From IMG/VR virus record IMGVR_UViG_3300007540_000013, positions 35,006 to 99,005 of that record: DNA of 64,000 bases; one strand, given 5' to 3'. How positions within the stretch are numbered: the stretch's first letter is position 1; every line of letters begins with the position of its first letter. The DNA comes from a virus. Shown here piece after piece: positions 29,671 through 64,000 of the stretch. The translations under genes were made by a program, and so were the position numbers. The notes under the pieces were generated by a model. It saw only the letters and a list, made by a program, of their open reading frames with translations. It was not told the origin of the DNA and searched no databases.

Positions 29671-29691
29671 CTATTTATAAAGAAATTCTCT

Positions 29692-30876
29692 ATGCTTTTA
29701 ACAGAATCTAAACTAACAGAAGTATTAACGGAAGGATTGAAGTACCATCTTGATACTAGAACCCCGTTATATGAAAATGTATACCGCCCAGGTTCAGAAG
29801 CATACTTCTCTACTATTAAACAAGCACGTCATTTAATGAATAAAGGCATCCTTACGGAATTATGTTTGGAGGATACAGAACTTTTATTCGAAACTGAGGT
29901 AGGAGAGTATGGAGAGTTTGAAGGTAAGAGAGTACCTCTAGATTTTCCGATGATCACCGAAGCAGTAGTTGTCACTGAACCTCAAACCACAGAATATACT
30001 CAAGCATGGAATACTGCTAAACAAGATGAGTTTATTAGGGGTATCGTTGAAAAAGAAGCTAGAAAGAAAAATATGGAGCCATATAACGCATGGTTAGACA
30101 TGGCTAGCAAAGGTAAAGCAGCAGGCGGAGCTGCATACACAGTAGGAGCTGCATCAATATCACAGTACTTATCAGAAGAAGATATGAACCCAGACGCTGA
30201 CGTTTCTAAAGTAATGCCTATCTTAGCAGAGTTTATGTTAGAAGGTAATAAGAAATACGTTATTTTAGCCGGTCAAGATACTTTTAGAGAGATTCAAACT
30301 GAAAACATAGATGTATGGGTAGTAGATTTAACCATCTATCAGGAAGATTCTAAAGAAACTATTGCAGAAGCTCTTAGTGAATATGTTGATTACGAACCTA
30401 AATATTTTGCTACTTGGTTTAGAGTATTAAAAGATATTGTGAGTAAGACTGAAGAGGATGTACACTATTACATGAAAGACCTATCAGCACCAGCTCACAA
30501 AGCTGCCAAGTACTTTTTAAACTTTTTTGAGAAAAACCCAGGTGTTCGAGAAAAGCTTCGTAATAGCATGGGAATGACTGAAGCAAAATATAAAGGTAAA
30601 GAGGTTAAGCTCAACAAGCCAATGAGAAGCTCTGGTCCTAAAAAGTACAAAGTATACACTAAGAACGATAAAGGAAACGTTGTAGTAGTAAACTTTGGAG
30701 ATGCTAAAGGAGGATTAACAGCTAAGATCAATAACGCTAAAGCTCGCAAAGCATTCTCAGACCGTCACAACTGCCCAGCTAAAAAAGATAAAACTAAAGC
30801 AGGATACTGGTCTTGCCGATTACCAAGATATGCAAGTTTACTCGGACTTAAATCAAGCTTTGGAGGGTACTGGTAG
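29692..30876 (+). CDS. Multidomain late protein with basic C-terminal domain (VNFGD..RHNC..AGYWSC)
   Basis: Late promoter at 29672; C-terminal domain typical of T4-like aquatic phages. Confidence 0.75.
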   Translation: MLLTESKLTEVLTEGLKYHLDTRTPLYENVYRPGSEAYFSTIKQARHLMNKGILTELCLEDTELLFETEVGEYGEFEGKRVPLDFPMITEAVVVTEPQTTEYTQAWNTAKQDEFIRGIVEKEARKKNMEPYNAWLDMASKGKAAGGAAYTVGAASISQYLSEEDMNPDADVSKVMPILAEFMLEGNKKYVILAGQDTFREIQTENIDVWVVDLTIYQEDSKETIAEALSEYVDYEPKYFATWFRVLKDIVSKTEEDVHYYMKDLSAPAHKAAKYFLNFFEKNPGVREKLRNSMGMTEAKYKGKEVKLNKPMRSSGPKKYKVYTKNDKGNVVVVNFGDAKGGLTAKINNAKARKAFSDRHNCPAKKDKTKAGYWSCRLPRYASLLGLKSSFGGYW

Positions 30877-31171
30877 ACCTTACCGGAATCTTTCGGTAAC
30901 TAAGGACTGTATAATAAGGAGCTTTTCTTCCGATGTAGATCCTGAAGAGCTTAAATGGCATCAGGATGATGAAGATAGATGGATAACAGTCTTAGAATGT
31001 GGTAAAGACTGGGGCTTTCAATACGACAATGAGTTACCTCATCGTTTAGAGCCTGGAGATATGCTATTTATAGAAAGGCACGAATGGCACCGAGTTATTA
31101 AAGGAGAAGGTGACTTGGTGATAAAAATAAATTTAGATGACGAAGGATTCTTTCAACAAGAAAAAAACTAA
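30830..31171 (+). CDS. Cupin-fold protein (start uncertain)
   Basis: LKWHQDDEDR ... LEPGD.LFIERHEWHRV. Confidence 0.7.
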   Translation: MQVYSDLNQALEGTGRPYRNLSVTKDCIIRSFSSDVDPEELKWHQDDEDRWITVLECGKDWGFQYDNELPHRLEPGDMLFIERHEWHRVIKGEGDLVIKINLDDEGFFQQEKN

Positions 31172-31349
31172 GAGCGATATATACGCTTTTATGCGAGAGC
31201 TTATCGAAGAAGTTCTTGCTGAAGAGAAGCCTGGATTATGGGCTAATATTAGAGCTAAAAGAGCTAGAGGTGAAAAACCAGCTCACAAAAACTCTAAAGC
31301 TCATAAAGATGCTGTTAAAGCAGGAAAAGAGATCAATAAAAATAGCTGA
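31137..31349 (+). CDS. Small basic protein (GLWANIRAKRARG), putative internal head protein
   Basis: EVLAE motif followed by a basic domain. Confidence 0.7.
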   Translation: MTKDSFNKKKTKSDIYAFMRELIEEVLAEEKPGLWANIRAKRARGEKPAHKNSKAHKDAVKAGKEINKNS

Positions 31350-31444
31350 TGAAATTTCCTACTCCGTTTTTACCGAAGAAGAACTACGTCAGGGGATGTA
31401 GGAAATCAAATATAATGTTTTTGTAGTTTCCATTATACAGCTAT
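31342..31444 (+). ncRNA. Candidate structured cis-acting RNA (three-way junction with loop-loop pairing)
   Basis: P1 ATAGCTG/CAGCTAT, P2 ATTTCCTAC/GTAGGAAAT, P3 TATAATG/CATTATA; loop pairing GAACTACG/TGTAGTTT. Confidence 0.6.
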
Positions 31445-31673
31445 GACTAGAGAAAGACTAACAGAGATTATTAAAGAGGTACTTGCAGAGATGCAAGAAG
31501 CTAAAGATGTTCATAAAGCAATGAACCCAGGCATCTTATCTAAAGACTCTAGTTTAAAAGGAGAAGATGGTAAGATCAAGATATCAAAAGTAAGACAGAA
31601 ACTAAGTAGCATGAAAGACAAAGGTAGTACCAAAGCTAAGGCTTTGCGTAGATTTATTAACTACCACGATTAA
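31443..31673 (+). CDS. Small basic protein, putative internal head protein
   Basis: MTRERLTEIIKEVLAE leader; NPGIL motif. Confidence 0.75.
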   Translation: MTRERLTEIIKEVLAEMQEAKDVHKAMNPGILSKDSSLKGEDGKIKISKVRQKLSSMKDKGSTKAKALRRFINYHD

Positions 31674-31701
31674 TCGCTATTTATAAAGAAACAATATAAT
31701 C

Positions 31702-60633: not shown

Positions 60634-63600
60634 ATGGCTAACGAATTTGTAATTAGGAATGGACTTAAAGTCCAAAGCGGTAGTGTAGACTTAGGGAATG
60701 TATCCTTAAATTTAGGTACTACAGGATCTGCAGCACTACCAGCTGGTAATAAACCAGTCGTATTAACATACGATACTGAAACTAATACAGTAACGTATCA
60801 GTTAGCTGCATCTGGATCTTTAGGGGAGTACGGTAATATAGGTATTCAAGGACCCGGAGGTATACAAGGTATAGCCGGTAACCAGGGTGTACAAGGTACC
60901 CAAGGTATAACATCTACTACACAAGGTACTCAAGGTATTAAAGGTACTCAAGCACCAAAAGGTACTCAAGGTACTGCTGGTGTTCAAGGTCTTGTAGGTA
61001 ACCAAGGAACTACAAATACAACTCAAGGTACTCAAGGAAACAAAGGTGTTCAAGGGCCGAAAGGTGAAAAAGGTATCGCCGGTGTTCAAGGTACCGTAGG
61101 TAACCAAGGAACTACTTCTGAAACACAAGGTACTCAAGGTACTAAAGGTGTTCAAGCACCAAAAGGTACTCAAGGTATCGCCGGTGTTCAAGGTCTTGTA
61201 GGTAATCAAGGTACAACATCAACCACTCAAGGTACTCAAGGTGATACTGGTACTCAAGCACCAAAAGGTAAAATCGGACCTGCTGGTGTTCAAGGTACCA
61301 TAGGTAACCAAGGAACTACTTCTGAAACACAAGGTACCCAAGGTAATAAAGGTGTCCAAGGTCCGAAAGGTAAAATCGGAACTGACGGTGTTCAAGGTCT
61401 TGTAGGTAATCAAGGTACTGCTAATACTACTCAAGGAACCCAAGGCGATACTGGTACTCAAGCACCAAAAGGTACTCAAGGTATCGCCGGTTCCCAAGGT
61501 ACAATAGGTAACCAAGGTACTACTTCTGAAACACAAGGTACCCAAGGTGATACTGGTACTCAAGCACCAAAAGGTACTCAAGGTATCGCCGGTGTTCAAG
61601 GTATTTTAGGTAACCAAGGAACTGCTAATACTACCCAAGGTACCCAAGGTAATAAAGGTGTCCAAGGACCGAAAGGTACTATCGGTATTTCCGGTGTTCA
61701 AGGTAACATAGGTAACCAAGGTACTGCTGATACTACTCAAGGAACCCAAGGTACTAAAGGTACTCAAGGACCGAAAGGTGAAGTAGGACCTGCCGGTGTT
61801 CAAGGTATAGTAGGTAACCAAGGTACTACTTCTGAAACACAAGGTACCCAAGGCGATACTGGTACTCAAGCACCAAAAGGTACTCAAGGTACTGCTGGTG
61901 TTCAAGGTATCATAGGTAACCAAGGAACTGCTAATACAACTCAAGGTACACAAGGTAATAAAGGTGTCCAAGGACCGAAAGGTGAAGTAGGAACTGACGG
62001 TGTTCAAGGTCTTGTAGGTAACCAAGGTACTGCTAATACAACTCAAGGTACTCAAGGTACTAAAGGTGTTCAAGCACCAAAAGGTACTCAAGGTATCGCC
62101 GGTGTTCAAGGTACCATAGGTAACCAAGGAACAACATCCACCACTCAAGGTACTCAAGGTGATACTGGTACTCAAGCACCAAAAGGTACTCAAGGTATAG
62201 ATGGACCGCAAGGTATAGTAGGTTCACAAGGTACTACATCTACTACACAAGGTACTCAAGGTTTACAAGGAACACAAGCACCAAAAGGTACTCAAGGTAC
62301 AGATGGACCGCAAGGTATATTAGGATCTCAAGGTACAACAAGTACTACTCAAGGTACTCAAGGTTTACAAGGTACTCAAGCACCGAAAGGTGAAAAAGGT
62401 ATTGCCGGGCCTCAAGGTATAACCGGTAATCAAGGTACTACATCTACTACTCAAGGAACACAAGGAACACAAGGAACACAAGCACCAAAAGGTACTCAAG
62501 GTACAGATGGACCGCAAGGTATAGTAGGTAATCAAGGTACAACATCCACTACTCAAGGAACACAAGGAACACAAGGAACACAAGCACCAAAAGGTGAAAA
62601 AGGTATTGCCGGGCCTCAAGGTATAGTAGGTTCACAAGGTACAACAAGTACTACACAAGGTACTCAAGGTTTACAAGGTACTCAAGCACCAAAAGGTACT
62701 CAAGGTATTGACGGTCCACAGGGTATATTAGGATCTCAAGGTACTACATCTACTACTCAAGGAACACAAGGAACACAAGGAACACAAGCACCGAAAGGTA
62801 CTCAAGGTACCGCTGGTAGTCAAGGTATATTAGGATCTCAAGGTACTGCATCTTCAACTCAAGGTACACAAGGAACTAAAGGAACACAAGCACCGAAAGG
62901 TACTCAAGGTACTGCTGGTGTTCAAGGTATCATAGGTAATCAAGGAACTGCTAATACTACACAAGGAACACAAGGAACTAAAGGTAGTCAAGGTACGAAA
63001 GGGGAAGTAGGTATTAGCGGTTCCCAAGGTACAATAGGTAACCAAGGTACCAATATAACAACACAAGGGACACAAGGAACTAAAGGATCGCAAGGTACTA
63101 AAGGGACTATCGGTATTTCCGGTTCCCAAGGTACAATAGGTAACCAAGGAACAGCTAATACTACACAAGGAAATCAAGGTACTAAAGGTACTCAAGGTCC
63201 GAAAGGTGAAAAAGGTCTCGCCGGTGTTCAAGGTATCGTAGGTAACCAAGGTACAACATCCACCACTCAAGGTACTCAAGGTACTAAAGGTGTTCAAGCA
63301 CCAAAAGGTATTCAAGGTATCGCCGGTGTTCAAGGTATCGTAGGTAACCAAGGCACTGCTAATACAACTCAAGGTACTCAAGGAAACAAAGGTAGCCAAG
63401 GTACTAAAGGGACTATCGGTATTAGCGGTTCCCAAGGTACAATAGGTAACCAAGGTACAAATATAACAACACAAGGGACACAAGGAACTAAAGGTAGCCA
63501 AGGTACTAAAGGGACTATCGGTATTTCCGGTTCCCAAGGTACAATAGGTAACCAAGGTACCAATATAACAACTCAAGGGACACAAGGAAACAAAGGTGTC

Positions 63601-64000
63601 CAAGGTACTAAAGGGACTATCGGTATTTCCGGTTCCCAAGGTACAATAGGTAACCAAGGTACTGCTAATACAACTCAAGGTACTCAAGGTACTAAAGGTG
63701 CTCAAGGTCCAAAAGGTAAAATCGGAACTGACGGTGTTCAAGGTATAGTAGGTAACCAAGGAACAGCTAATACTACCCAAGGTACACAAGGAAACAAAGG
63801 TGTCCAAGGTCCGAAAGGTGAAAAAGGTATCGCCGGTGTTCAAGGTACAGTAGGTACCCAAGGAACAGCTAATACTACACAAGGAACACAAGGTACTAAA
63901 GGTACTCAAGGACCGAAAGGTAAAAAAGGTATCGCCGGTGTTCAAGGTACAGTAGGTACCCAAGGAACTGCTAATACTACCCAAGGTACACAAGGAAACA
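60634..64000 (+). CDS. Giant collagen-like fibre protein (>1120 aa, runs off window end); not in ORF track
   Basis: MANEFVIRNGLKV... then G-X-Y repeats (GTQ, GNQ, GVQ, GIA, GPK/APK); reading frame holds to the window end. Confidence 0.93.
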   Translation, partial: MANEFVIRNGLKVQSGSVDLGNVSLNLGTTGSAALPAGNKPVVLTYDTETNTVTYQLAASGSLGEYGNIGIQGPGGIQGIAGNQGVQGTQGITSTTQGTQGIKGTQAPKGTQGTAGVQGLVGNQGTTNTTQGTQGNKGVQGPKGEKGIAGVQGTVGNQGTTSETQGTQGTKGVQAPKGTQGIAGVQGLVGNQGTTSTTQGTQGDTGTQAPKGKIGPAGVQGTIGNQGTTSETQGTQGNKGVQGPKGKIGTDGVQGLVGNQGTANTTQGTQGDTGTQAPKGTQGIAGSQGTIGNQGTTSETQGTQGDTGTQAPKGTQGIAGVQGILGNQGTANTTQGTQGNKGVQGPKGTIGISGVQGNIGNQGTADTTQGTQGTKGTQGPKGEVGPAGVQGIVGNQGTTSETQGTQGDTGTQAPKGTQGTAGVQGIIGNQGTANTTQGTQGNKGVQGPKGEVGTDGVQGLVGNQGTANTTQGTQGTKGVQAPKGTQGIAGVQGTIGNQGTTSTTQGTQGDTGTQAPKGTQGIDGPQGIVGSQGTTSTTQGTQGLQGTQAPKGTQGTDGPQGILGSQGTTSTTQGTQGLQGTQAPKGEKGIAGPQGITGNQGTTSTTQGTQGTQGTQAPKGTQGTDGPQGIVGNQGTTSTTQGTQGTQGTQAPKGEKGIAGPQGIVGSQGTTSTTQGTQGLQGTQAPKGTQGIDGPQGILGSQGTTSTTQGTQGTQGTQAPKGTQGTAGSQGILGSQGTASSTQGTQGTKGTQAPKGTQGTAGVQGIIGNQGTANTTQGTQGTKGSQGTKGEVGISGSQGTIGNQGTNITTQGTQGTKGSQGTKGTIGISGSQGTIGNQGTANTTQGNQGTKGTQGPKGEKGLAGVQGIVGNQGTTSTTQGTQGTKGVQAPKGIQGIAGVQGIVGNQGTANTTQGTQGNKGSQGTKGTIGISGSQGTIGNQGTNITTQGTQGTKGSQGTKGTIGISGSQGTIGNQGTNITTQGTQGNKGVQGTKGTIGISGSQGTIGNQGTANTTQGTQGTKGAQGPKGKIGTDGVQGIVGNQGTANTTQGTQGNKGVQGPKGEKGIAGVQGTVGTQGTANTTQGTQGTKGTQGPKGKKGIAGVQGTVGTQGTANTTQGTQGN
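60823..64000 (+). repeat. Tandem 102-bp (34-aa) repeat, 31 complete units plus a partial
   Basis: Units start at 60823, 60925, 61027, 61129, 61231 ... 63781, 63883, 63985. Confidence 0.95.

What the first reader, a model, noticed from the sequence alone, without database searches (positions are those of the whole stretch)
31342..31445. Three-way-junction RNA with kissing loops that pairs one gene's stop with the next gene's start
Seen: the 93-nt gap folds almost entirely. P1 ATAGCTG (31342-48, overlapping the TGA stop) pairs with CAGCTAT (31438-44, overlapping the next ATG). P2 is ATTTCCTAC-TCC (31354-65) with GGA-T-GTAGGAAAT (31394-406). P3 is TATAATG (31411-17) with CATTATA (31431-37). The P2 loop GAACTACG (31381-88) is complementary to the P3 loop TGTAGTTT (31422-29). 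The two ORFs are in the same frame. Known: purine riboswitches use this topology, and T4 gene 60 bypasses a structured coding gap. Inference: a new cis-regulatory or recoding RNA (translational coupling, ligand switch or ribosome hop) or a small mobile RNA element.
Basis: partly seen in the sequence, partly recalled or inferred. Interest (0 to 1): 0.72.

Follow-up and report, generated by a model that had tools for sequence, protein, structure and literature searches.

The report
Kissing-loop RNA between two phage genes
The 93-base gap between two small genes of this uncultured aquatic phage encodes a real folded RNA, a built-in copy of a two-hairpin "kissing-loop" module found in over a hundred aquatic phage sequences and loosely related to the catalogued CyVA-1 RNA; what the module does is still unknown.

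Summary
Every stem sits at the stated coordinates and the minimum-energy fold reproduces P1, P2 and P3.

Comparison is the decisive evidence. The core is two hairpins with invariant loops, GAAGAAGAAC-NN-CGNCA and UUUUUG-NN-GUUUC. It recurs in 135 distinct viral and metagenomic sequences. The stems differ completely in sequence but stay paired. The two free NN dinucleotides are complementary in 135 of 135 sequences, so the loop-loop contact is shown by covariation.

P1 is conserved only in the window's own lineage and has no compensatory change.

No Rfam family reaches its threshold. The only link is a weak partial match to CyVA-1, whose consensus hairpin has a nearly identical loop.

Ribosome hopping and readthrough are not supported, because the frame relation varies among relatives and stops lie in the gap. 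Purine-riboswitch and hammerhead membership both fail.

In this lineage the module lies inside a late operon. At least five kinds of upstream ORF end inside P1's 5' arm, in two frames. The downstream ORF always starts 5-8 nt after the last hairpin. Translational coupling is possible, but a simple energy calculation does not support it.

Other agents of this scan found the same family on other DNA.

The parts
31137..31349 (+). Upstream ORF (70 aa, GLWANIRAKRARG-type small phage protein). Its last codons and TGA stop lie in the P1 5' arm.
   Evidence: (311 relatives in IMG/VR).
31342..31348 (+). P1 5' arm, AUAGCUG. It holds UAG (31343-45) and UGA (31347-49) in two frames.
   Evidence: At least five kinds of upstream ORF in relatives stop here, at UGA or at UAG.
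31354..31365 (+). P2 5' strand: lower stem AUUUCCUAC plus UCC.
   Evidence: Compensatory UA<->CG changes and G-U pairs.
31373..31393 (+). HP1, the family core. CC/GG closes the invariant 17-nt loop GAAGAAGAACUACGUCA (31375-31391).
   Evidence: The partial CyVA-1 match covers 31370-31396.
31381..31388 (+). Kissing strand of the HP1 loop, GAACUACG.
   Evidence: the NN positions are complementary to the HP2 loop in 135/135 sequences.
31394..31406 (+). P2 3' strand, GGA-U-GUAGGAAAU. It is purine-rich and reads AGGAGGUGA in close relatives.
31411..31437 (+). Stem UAUAAUG/CAUUAUA closes the invariant 13-nt loop UUUUUGUAGUUUC (31418-31430).
   Evidence: The stem sequence is entirely different in distant members but stays paired.
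31422..31429 (+). Kissing strand of the HP2 loop, UGUAGUUU.
31438..31444 (+). P1 3' arm, CAGCUAU. It overlaps the AUG at 31443-45.
   Evidence: It is kept in L114 even though no AUG follows there.
31443..31673 (+). Downstream ORF (76 aa) with a conserved N-terminal leader, MTRERLTEIIKEVLAE. Relatives carry the same leader on bodies of 71-274 aa.
29671..29680 (+). CTATTTATAA promoter-like motif that probably starts the operon containing the element.
   Evidence: 6 copies, all on the + strand and upstream of genes, against 0.75 expected.
31677..31686 (+). Next CTATTTATAA motif, just after the downstream ORF. It marks the next transcription unit.

Best explanation
The gap encodes a real, compact RNA domain on the + strand.

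Core (shown). The core is two hairpins locked together by an 8-bp loop-loop helix (GAACUACG with UGUAGUUU). Invariant unpaired residues surround this helix: GAAGAA, NCA, UUUU and C. The same module occurs across aquatic phages and is a phage-borne relative of Rfam's CyVA-1.

Local build (shown). In this phage lineage the module is not a free-standing gene. It sits inside a late operon (about 29692-31673) as a portable intergenic cassette. A lineage-specific lower P2 stem and a 7-bp closing helix P1 wrap the core. The P1 5' arm supplies stop codons in two frames for whatever ORF is joined upstream. The P1 3' arm supplies the AUG of a gene that always begins with the same leader peptide.

Function (inferred). 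The family-wide job of the core is most likely to be recognised, as a rigid folded particle, by a conserved partner not yet identified (a protein, the ribosome or RNA polymerase). It could act while in the mRNA or after being cut out. Any coupling of downstream translation to upstream termination would be a secondary, local use.
For: - Structure. HP1, HP2 and the kissing helix are 96.5% paired in 135 distinct sequences. The NN dinucleotides are complementary in 135/135.
- Family: the module is in IMG/VR and in more than 119 metagenome records from many projects. It is in only 5 MAG contigs among 185,579 species genomes.
- Model score: model R2 scores the window copy at 67.6 bits, E = 1.8e-15, as a single copy in the record.
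- Autonomy of the core: it occurs between or just before tRNA genes. It occurs after LAGLIDADG and before CP12 in one set of cyanophage-like contigs with divergent capsid and fibre genes. It occurs followed by a GC hairpin and a U-rich tract. The outer helices differ by lineage: most members pair the G-rich strand before HP2 with a strand after a third hairpin, whereas the window lineage pairs it with an upstream strand.
- Position: outside the window lineage, the module starts within 25 nt of an ORF stop in 58 of 91 members. An ORF starts within 25 nt downstream in only 15 of 91.
- Cassette behaviour: at least five kinds of upstream ORF end at UGA or UAG inside UAGCUGA. One shared leader precedes variable downstream bodies, and homology breakpoints fall at about 31338.
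- Operon context: there is no promoter-like CTATTTATAA motif and no terminator inside 29692-31673.
- RNA libraries: contigs join the element to both neighbouring ORFs. This is weak evidence.
Against: - No partner, ligand or activity is known for this family or for CyVA-1, so 'recognised by a conserved partner' is inference from invariant unpaired loop residues.
- There is no evidence here that the RNA is released from the mRNA. Contigs cannot show RNA ends.
- P1 has no compensatory change.
- The stop-in-P1 and start-in-P1 pattern would also fit a translational-coupling device.
- The module was not found by blastn in 50,697 GenBank phage records, so no cultured system is at hand.
Confidence: 0.5

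Rival explanations
1. Structure-bridged translational coupling. P1 and the kissing core hold the upstream stop and the downstream AUG a few base pairs apart. A ribosome terminating at UGA/UAG melts P1 and lower P2, and it or a fresh subunit initiates at the AUG 93 nt away. The last gene of the operon is then made only when the upstream gene is translated.
For: - The stop falls in the P1 5' arm for at least five kinds of upstream ORF in two frames, and the AUG lies 5-8 nt after HP2 in 19 of 22 relatives.
- The other genes of this operon overlap directly: 30830/30876 and 31137/31171.
- The phage is essentially Shine-Dalgarno-less, with 5 of 42 starts showing even a weak purine motif, so a structured start region would normally be unfavourable.
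Against: - The computed cost of opening the start region (31431-49) is only 2.4 kcal/mol. That is lower than for most other genes of the window and is unchanged when 31335-62 is held single-stranded (the pseudoknot is not modelled).
- P1 shows no covariation.
- L114 keeps P1 without an AUG, and in L232 and L270 the reading frame that ends in P1 is only 16 codons long.
- The core is conserved in contexts with no adjacent start codon.
Confidence: 0.25
2. Ligand-sensing riboswitch aptamer. The pocket would be formed by the kissing helix and the invariant unpaired residues.
For: - Loop residues not needed for pairing are invariant.
- Some members are followed by a terminator-like hairpin or precede an auxiliary metabolic gene, CP12.
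- Glutamine riboswitches occur in the same contigs, so these phages do use riboswitches.
Against: - Downstream genes are unrelated to one another: tRNAs, HNH and GIY-YIG-like nucleases, ferredoxin, CP12, small unknown ORFs.
- The module sits at the 5' edge of intergenic regions, hugging the upstream stop rather than the downstream start.
- There is no conserved alternative pairing in the window copy.
Confidence: 0.08
3. The conservation is mainly at the DNA level. The block would be a recombination or homing hot spot, either a PeSL-like shuffling cassette or a homing-endonuclease target, and the RNA fold would be incidental.
For: - Flanking genes are swapped at the block's edges.
- LAGLIDADG, HNH and GIY-YIG-like genes lie next to the module in other lineages.
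- PeSL motifs play such a role in T4-type phages (PMC4122927).
Against: - Stems keep pairing through complete sequence turnover.
- Frequent G-U pairs work on one strand only.
- The NN covariation between two separate loops cannot be explained by a DNA target site.
- There is no sigma-70-type promoter or terminator on the + strand in the element.
Confidence: 0.05
4. Self-cleaving ribozyme or RNA-processing signal that cuts the operon mRNA next to the AUG.
For: - The architecture is a three-way junction with a loop-loop contact, and a CUGAUGA box lies at 31346-52.
- Two RNA-library contigs of one run end at 31439.
Against: - The hammerhead core fails. J2/3 is CAAA here and varies among relatives (CUAA, CUUC, GAAA, UUGU, UAAU). 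CUGAUGA itself varies (CUGAUAA, CUGAAAU, CUAAUGA).
- No ribozyme family is hit in Rfam.
- The contig ends coincide with the point where related strains diverge, so they are expected from assembly.
Confidence: 0.04
5. Recoding: a ribosome hop or stop-codon readthrough fusing 31137-31349 to 31443-31673.
For: The two ORFs are in the same frame in the window (gap of 93 nt), and a structured gap follows the stop.
Against: - The gap is 0, 1 or 2 mod 3 in 10, 6 and 4 relatives.
- A tandem UGA-UGA plus a further in-frame stop lie in the gap.
- Upstream proteins are unrelated to one another.
- Landing on AGC 31439-41 gives UAU GAC UAG.
Confidence: 0.01

Closest known systems
CyVA-1 RNA motif (Rfam RF02965; Weinberg et al. 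2017, PMC5737381; Rfam type 'Gene; sRNA')
   Same: The Rfam consensus hairpin at positions 41-65, ccccGAAGGAGAaCGACGUCAgggg, is a short stem closing a 17-nt loop. That loop differs from the window's GAAGAAGAACUACGUCA at 2 of 17 positions. Function is unknown in both.
   Different: - Only the hairpin matches: 15.5 bits for the window and 18-21 bits for other members, against a gathering score of 41.4.
- Model positions 1-40 and 66-77 find no counterpart, and the 77-position model has no room after the hairpin for HP2.
- The present family is essentially confined to viral and metagenomic DNA.
- I could not obtain a genuine CyVA-1 sequence to compare architectures.
Purine riboswitch aptamer (RF00167)
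   Same: A three-way junction in which the loops of the two distal hairpins pair, closed by a P1 that meets the expression region.
   Different: There is no Rfam match. In purine riboswitches the junction is conserved and the loops vary. Here the loops are invariant and the junction strands vary among relatives.
PeSL mobile regulatory cassettes of T4-type phages (PMC2839356, PMC4122927)
   Same: A short conserved intergenic block at which otherwise unrelated flanking genes are exchanged among related large phages.
   Different: PeSLs are promoter plus terminator stem-loops. This block has neither. It has a covarying pseudoknotted fold that is also conserved in unrelated phage groups.
Structure-dependent translational coupling and termination-reinitiation (RNA-phage MS2 coat-replicase long-range pairing; calicivirus TURBS). 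Recalled from established knowledge, not tested here.
   Same: The downstream start is paired with sequence that the upstream ribosome must traverse, and the stop and start are brought close together.
   Different: The stop and start are 93 nt apart along the sequence and bridged by a folded domain. No rRNA complementarity or energetic occlusion was demonstrated.

Membership tests
Aquatic-phage kissing-loop module (model R2 built here from alignment A2) | HP1: a short stem closing the loop GAAGAAGAAC-NN-CGNCA | tested here: met
   Window 31373-31393. R2 scores 67.6 bits, E = 1.8e-15.
Aquatic-phage kissing-loop module (model R2 built here from alignment A2) | HP2: a roughly 7-bp stem closing the loop UUUUUG-NN-GUUUC, with NN complementary to the NN of HP1 | tested here: met
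   Window 31411-31437, UA with UA. 135/135 family sequences are complementary.
Aquatic-phage kissing-loop module (model R2 built here from alignment A2) | In most members, a third hairpin after HP2 and a closing helix between the G-rich strand before HP2 and a C/U-rich strand after it | tested here: not met
   This is absent in the window lineage. There the G-rich strand pairs with an upstream strand (P2) and the ORF starts 5 nt after HP2.
CyVA-1 (RF02965) | Score at or above Rfam's gathering threshold (41.4 bits) | tested here: not met
   15.5 bits, model positions 40-66 only. Other family members score 18.2-20.6 bits.
CyVA-1 (RF02965) | Hairpin with a 17-nt GAAGGAGAaCGACGUCA-type loop | tested here: met
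   The alignment to the consensus shows a 25/25 ungapped match apart from 2 loop positions.
CyVA-1 (RF02965) | The remainder of the 77-position consensus structure | tested here: inconclusive
   It is not matched by cmscan. No true CyVA-1 sequence was available: the exact-loop scan of IMG/VR gave one chance hit in a coding region, and the control genomes lack the family.
Purine riboswitch (RF00167) | Conserved junction nucleotides that form the ligand pocket, and an Rfam match | tested here: not met
   No hit even at E <= 10. The junction strands vary among relatives.
Hammerhead ribozyme | Core of CUGAUGA ... GAAA ... with a non-G nucleotide at the cleavage site, around three stems | tested here: not met
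   CUGAUGA is present at 31346-52, but the position of G12 is C (CAAA). Both boxes vary among relatives, and no member has both intact. No Rfam hit.
T4 gene 60-type translational bypass | Matched take-off and landing codons that restore a conserved downstream frame | tested here: not met
   The frame relation is not conserved, there are stops in the gap, and landing on AGC ends after two codons.
PeSL cassette | Early promoter plus terminator stem-loop | tested here: not met
   No + strand promoter-like or terminator-like site lies in 31342-31445.
Start-codon-occluding coupling structure | The start region is energetically closed unless the upstream ORF is translated | tested here: inconclusive
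   The AUG is paired in P1. The opening cost is only 2.4 kcal/mol and is unchanged by a modelled terminating ribosome. Tertiary contacts are not modelled.

The most novel reading that the evidence does not exclude
The kissing-loop core is a new class of functional RNA of aquatic phages that docks on the translation machinery. In this lineage it works as a bacterial counterpart of viral termination-reinitiation or shunt elements. It would hold a terminating ribosome so that it restarts 93 nt downstream at an AUG that the fold places beside the stop codon, in a phage that has no Shine-Dalgarno sequences.
Probability: 0.15. Interest if true: 0.85.

Novelty: new variant of a known kind. Interest (0 to 1): 0.6.

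Why it matters
Few phage RNAs have covariation support this clean. Both stems turn over completely in sequence, and a loop-loop helix co-varies in every one of 135 sequences while 24 loop nucleotides never change. That pattern points to a specific molecular partner or activity, yet none is known for this module or for its only catalogued relative, CyVA-1.

The module is spread over several kinds of aquatic phage. These include cyanophage-like contigs and the window's own Shine-Dalgarno-less large phage. It sits in tRNA clusters, next to homing-endonuclease genes and auxiliary metabolic genes, and inside operons.

The window's build has the stop and start codons in the arms of one helix. This makes it a compact natural construct on which translational coupling, processing and partner binding can all be tested with simple compensatory mutants.

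Tried and rejected
- **Rfam.** All 8 searches, at gathering and at E-value thresholds, on the window and on 30 related loci, gave nothing but tRNAs, glutamine riboswitches and sub-threshold CyVA-1 fragments.
- **GenBank phages.** Blastn against 50,697 records, with the window region and three other family types, gave no match to the element. The only hits were to a neighbouring tRNA-Leu. The named cyanophages S-RIM50 and S-MbCM25 lack the module.
- **CyVA-1 loop scan.** An exact CyVA-1 loop scan of IMG/VR gave one chance hit in GC-rich coding DNA.
- **Coding hypothesis for the gap.** A 25-codon ORF from AUG 31349 and the EEELRQG frame were rejected. The AUG is absent in relatives, a 1-nt indel shifts the frame, and the NN positions change the encoded residue.
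The AUG becomes AUA, with a compensating stem change, in several relatives, and the position is ordinary stem in the wider family.
- **Extra copies.** There are no extra copies of the element in the window or in its 99-kb record.
- **Group I or group II intron reading of the LAGLIDADG-linked members.** Rejected. The strand order does not fit P7/P3/P8, there is no domain V-like hairpin, and only 27-72 nt lie upstream of the endonuclease gene.
- **RNA-library contigs**. They cover the element and join it to both ORFs, but they are assemblies. They cannot show RNA ends, strand or level, and the two contigs ending at 31439 coincide with a strain-divergence point.
- **Genome records behind metagenome loci** could not be searched.

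Full report
**What is in the sequence.** The window is part of a 99-kb linear IMG/VR virus record estimated at about 60% complete. It is AT-rich (35-44% G+C) and nearly all long ORFs are on the + strand. Large terminase, portal and major head genes lie 3.7-13 kb downstream of the finding.

The 93-nt gap lies between a 70-aa ORF (31137-31349) and a 76-aa ORF (31443-31673). RNAfold returns the same three-way junction at -23.8 kcal/mol with z = -1.9. This is suggestive but not decisive for a single AT-rich sequence.

**Close relatives.** The two flanking proteins led to about 25 IMG/VR contigs that keep the element at 79-95% identity. More relatives came from a metagenome scan.

The pattern by helix is:
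- P3 has a G-C to A-U swap in six sequences.
- Lower P2 has U-A to C-G swaps and many G-U pairs, which fit only a + strand RNA.
- P1 never shows a double change and has seven mismatched cells.

**A much larger family.** Two short pattern scans of IMG/VR, followed by a covariance model built from the close relatives, uncovered distant members. Their stems share no sequence with the window, but their loops are identical to it.

A relaxed pattern left the two central kissing positions free.

After removing four chance hits, 135 distinct sequences align cleanly. The family core is:
- HP1: a stem of about 5 bp closing GAAGAAGAAC-NN-CGNCA.
- A variable linker that usually contains AGGAG, AGGGA or a similar G-rich run.
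- HP2: a stem of about 7 bp closing UUUUUG-NN-GUUUC.

All 12 stem pairs show double changes. The structure is 96.5% paired, against 41-50% slid. The two NN pairs are complementary in 135/135 sequences with four pair types each. The four chance hits are not complementary at NN.

**How the window lineage differs from the rest.** In most members the G-rich strand before HP2 pairs with a C/U-rich strand that follows a third hairpin. This gives HP1 plus a three-way junction. In the window lineage that third hairpin is absent. The G-rich strand pairs with an upstream strand (lower P2), and P1 closes the whole element.

**Known families.** No Rfam 15 family reaches its threshold in the window or in 30 related loci. 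The only recurrent signal is a sub-threshold match to CyVA-1 (15.5-20.6 bits against 41.4). That match is confined to the hairpin whose consensus, ccccGAAGGAGAaCGACGUCAgggg, is almost the window's HP1.

The paper that defined CyVA-1 says only that these RNAs average 78 nt (PMC5737381). Rfam types it as a small RNA gene, and no function is on record. I could not obtain a true CyVA-1 sequence to compare the rest of the architecture. I therefore file the window element as a divergent relative of CyVA-1, not as a member.

Membership in three other kinds fails:
- Purine riboswitch: there the junction is conserved and the loops vary, which is the reverse of what is seen here.
- Hammerhead: CUGAUGA is present at 31346-52, but the G12 position is C, and both core boxes drift among relatives.
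- T4 gene-60-type bypass.

**Context in the window lineage.** A motif, CTATTTATAA, occurs six times, always on the + strand just upstream of a gene, against 0.75 expected. Copies lie at 29671 and 31677 and none lies between them. There is no sigma-70-like promoter or terminator on the + strand in the element. The element is thus internal to an operon, 29692-31673, whose other genes overlap one another.

Among relatives, at least five kinds of upstream ORF stop inside UAGCUGA. Most stop at UGA and some stop at UAG in another frame. The downstream ORF starts 5-8 nt after HP2 in 19 of 22 relatives and carries a conserved leader (M-T/K-R-x-x-L-T-E-I-I-R-E-V-L-A-E) in front of bodies of 71-274 aa.

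Homology to relatives with different upstream genes begins at about 31338. The block made of stops, RNA, start and leader therefore behaves as a portable cassette, reminiscent of PeSL-mediated shuffling in T4-type phages (PMC4122927). Unlike a PeSL, it has no promoter or terminator.

- Hop or readthrough. The stop-to-start gap is 0, 1 or 2 mod 3 in 10, 6 and 4 relatives, and the gap contains further in-frame stops. Landing on the only matching codon gives a stop two codons later. Rejected.
- Translational coupling. The stop-in-P1 and start-in-P1 geometry, and the near absence of Shine-Dalgarno sequences in this phage, are consistent with it. However, the nearest-neighbour cost of opening the start region is only 2.4 kcal/mol. 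That is below most other genes of the window, and it does not change when a terminating ribosome is modelled (tertiary contacts are ignored). Also, L114 keeps P1 without an AUG. Coupling remains possible, about one chance in four, but is not supported by what could be computed.

**Context in the wider family.** Outside the window lineage, the module begins within 25 nt of an upstream ORF's stop in 58 of 91 evaluable members (median 19 nt). An ORF starts within 25 nt downstream in only 15 of 91 (median 99 nt). This is the placement of a 3'-side or stand-alone element rather than a classical 5' leader.

The module occurs in several settings:
- Between or directly before tRNA genes.
- Followed by GUAAUUGA, a GC-rich hairpin and a U-rich tract.
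- Directly after a LAGLIDADG endonuclease gene and about 40 nt before a CP12 gene, in contigs that also carry a divergent head gene and a podophage-type fibre gene.
- Next to HNH and GIY-YIG-like genes.

Homing-endonuclease genes typically settle beside highly conserved sequence. That fits the invariant loops. It is one copy per record where that could be checked.

RNA-library contigs contain the element joined to both neighbouring ORFs. This is weak evidence of co-transcription.

**Conclusion.** It is shown that this is a real + strand RNA with HP1, HP2 and a kissing helix, and that it belongs to a large aquatic-phage family whose only catalogued relative is CyVA-1. It is also shown that recoding does not apply and that the block behaves as a cassette.

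It is inferred that the core is an autonomous folded domain recognised by a conserved but unidentified partner, and that P1 and the stop/start overlap are lineage-specific packaging that may or may not couple translation.

Other agents of this scan reached the same 'CyVA-1 relative' reading on four other genomes. I had found the CyVA-1 link independently before reading those notes.

Noticed in passing
window 60739-64000: A tandem array of 30 or more copies of a 102-nt unit, 60-89% alike, lies inside an ORF of more than 1122 aa (60634-63999, open at the window end). This amounts to a 34-residue protein repeat.
   Followed up: no
window 7836, 11072, 24788, 29671, 31677, 36668 (+ strand): CTATTTATAA occurs six times against 0.75 expected. 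Every copy lies just upstream of a gene start, including the portal gene. It is probably this phage's (late) promoter motif.
   Followed up: partly
window 31137, 31443, 31702, 32681 and neighbours: Several adjacent ORFs begin with a similar helix ending in ...EVLAE. Another first-reader note reads these as prohead-protease-type capsid-targeting leaders. I confirmed only the shared motif and its conservation in relatives.
   Followed up: partly
L003/L113 (IMGVR_UViG_3300042731_002066), at the position equivalent to window 31489-31506: In several relatives the downstream ORF is 169-179 aa. It has the same leader and the same C-terminal 53 residues as the window's 76-aa protein, plus an in-frame internal segment of about 103 codons. 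The window gene therefore looks like a shortened version.
   Followed up: partly
L163 3600-6400 (- strand), and likewise L132, L158, L174, L135, L194, L176: A conserved block runs LAGLIDADG endonuclease (PF03161, apparently as two overlapping ORFs), then the kissing-loop RNA, then a CP12-domain ORF (PF02672), then a roughly 265-aa ORF, then a Gp80-type fibre protein (PF23140). The block is divergent from a major head gene.
   Followed up: partly
L240, L269, L274, L278, L294, L302, L317, L333: In these contigs a conserved 75-aa ORF (...EPTEFYSGASGYAGATL...LESHL) is followed, 16-25 nt later, by the RNA module and then by tRNA-Leu. HNH or GIY-YIG-like genes lie nearby.
   Followed up: partly
L156 2809-2871, L177 6997-7049, L221 674-725: Glutamine riboswitch aptamers (RF01739, 48-50 bits) lie in the same contigs as the kissing-loop module.
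   Followed up: no
window 30830-31171: A 113-aa ORF has a sub-threshold Cupin_2 match (25.2 bits against 27.2). It overlaps both of its neighbouring ORFs.
   Followed up: no
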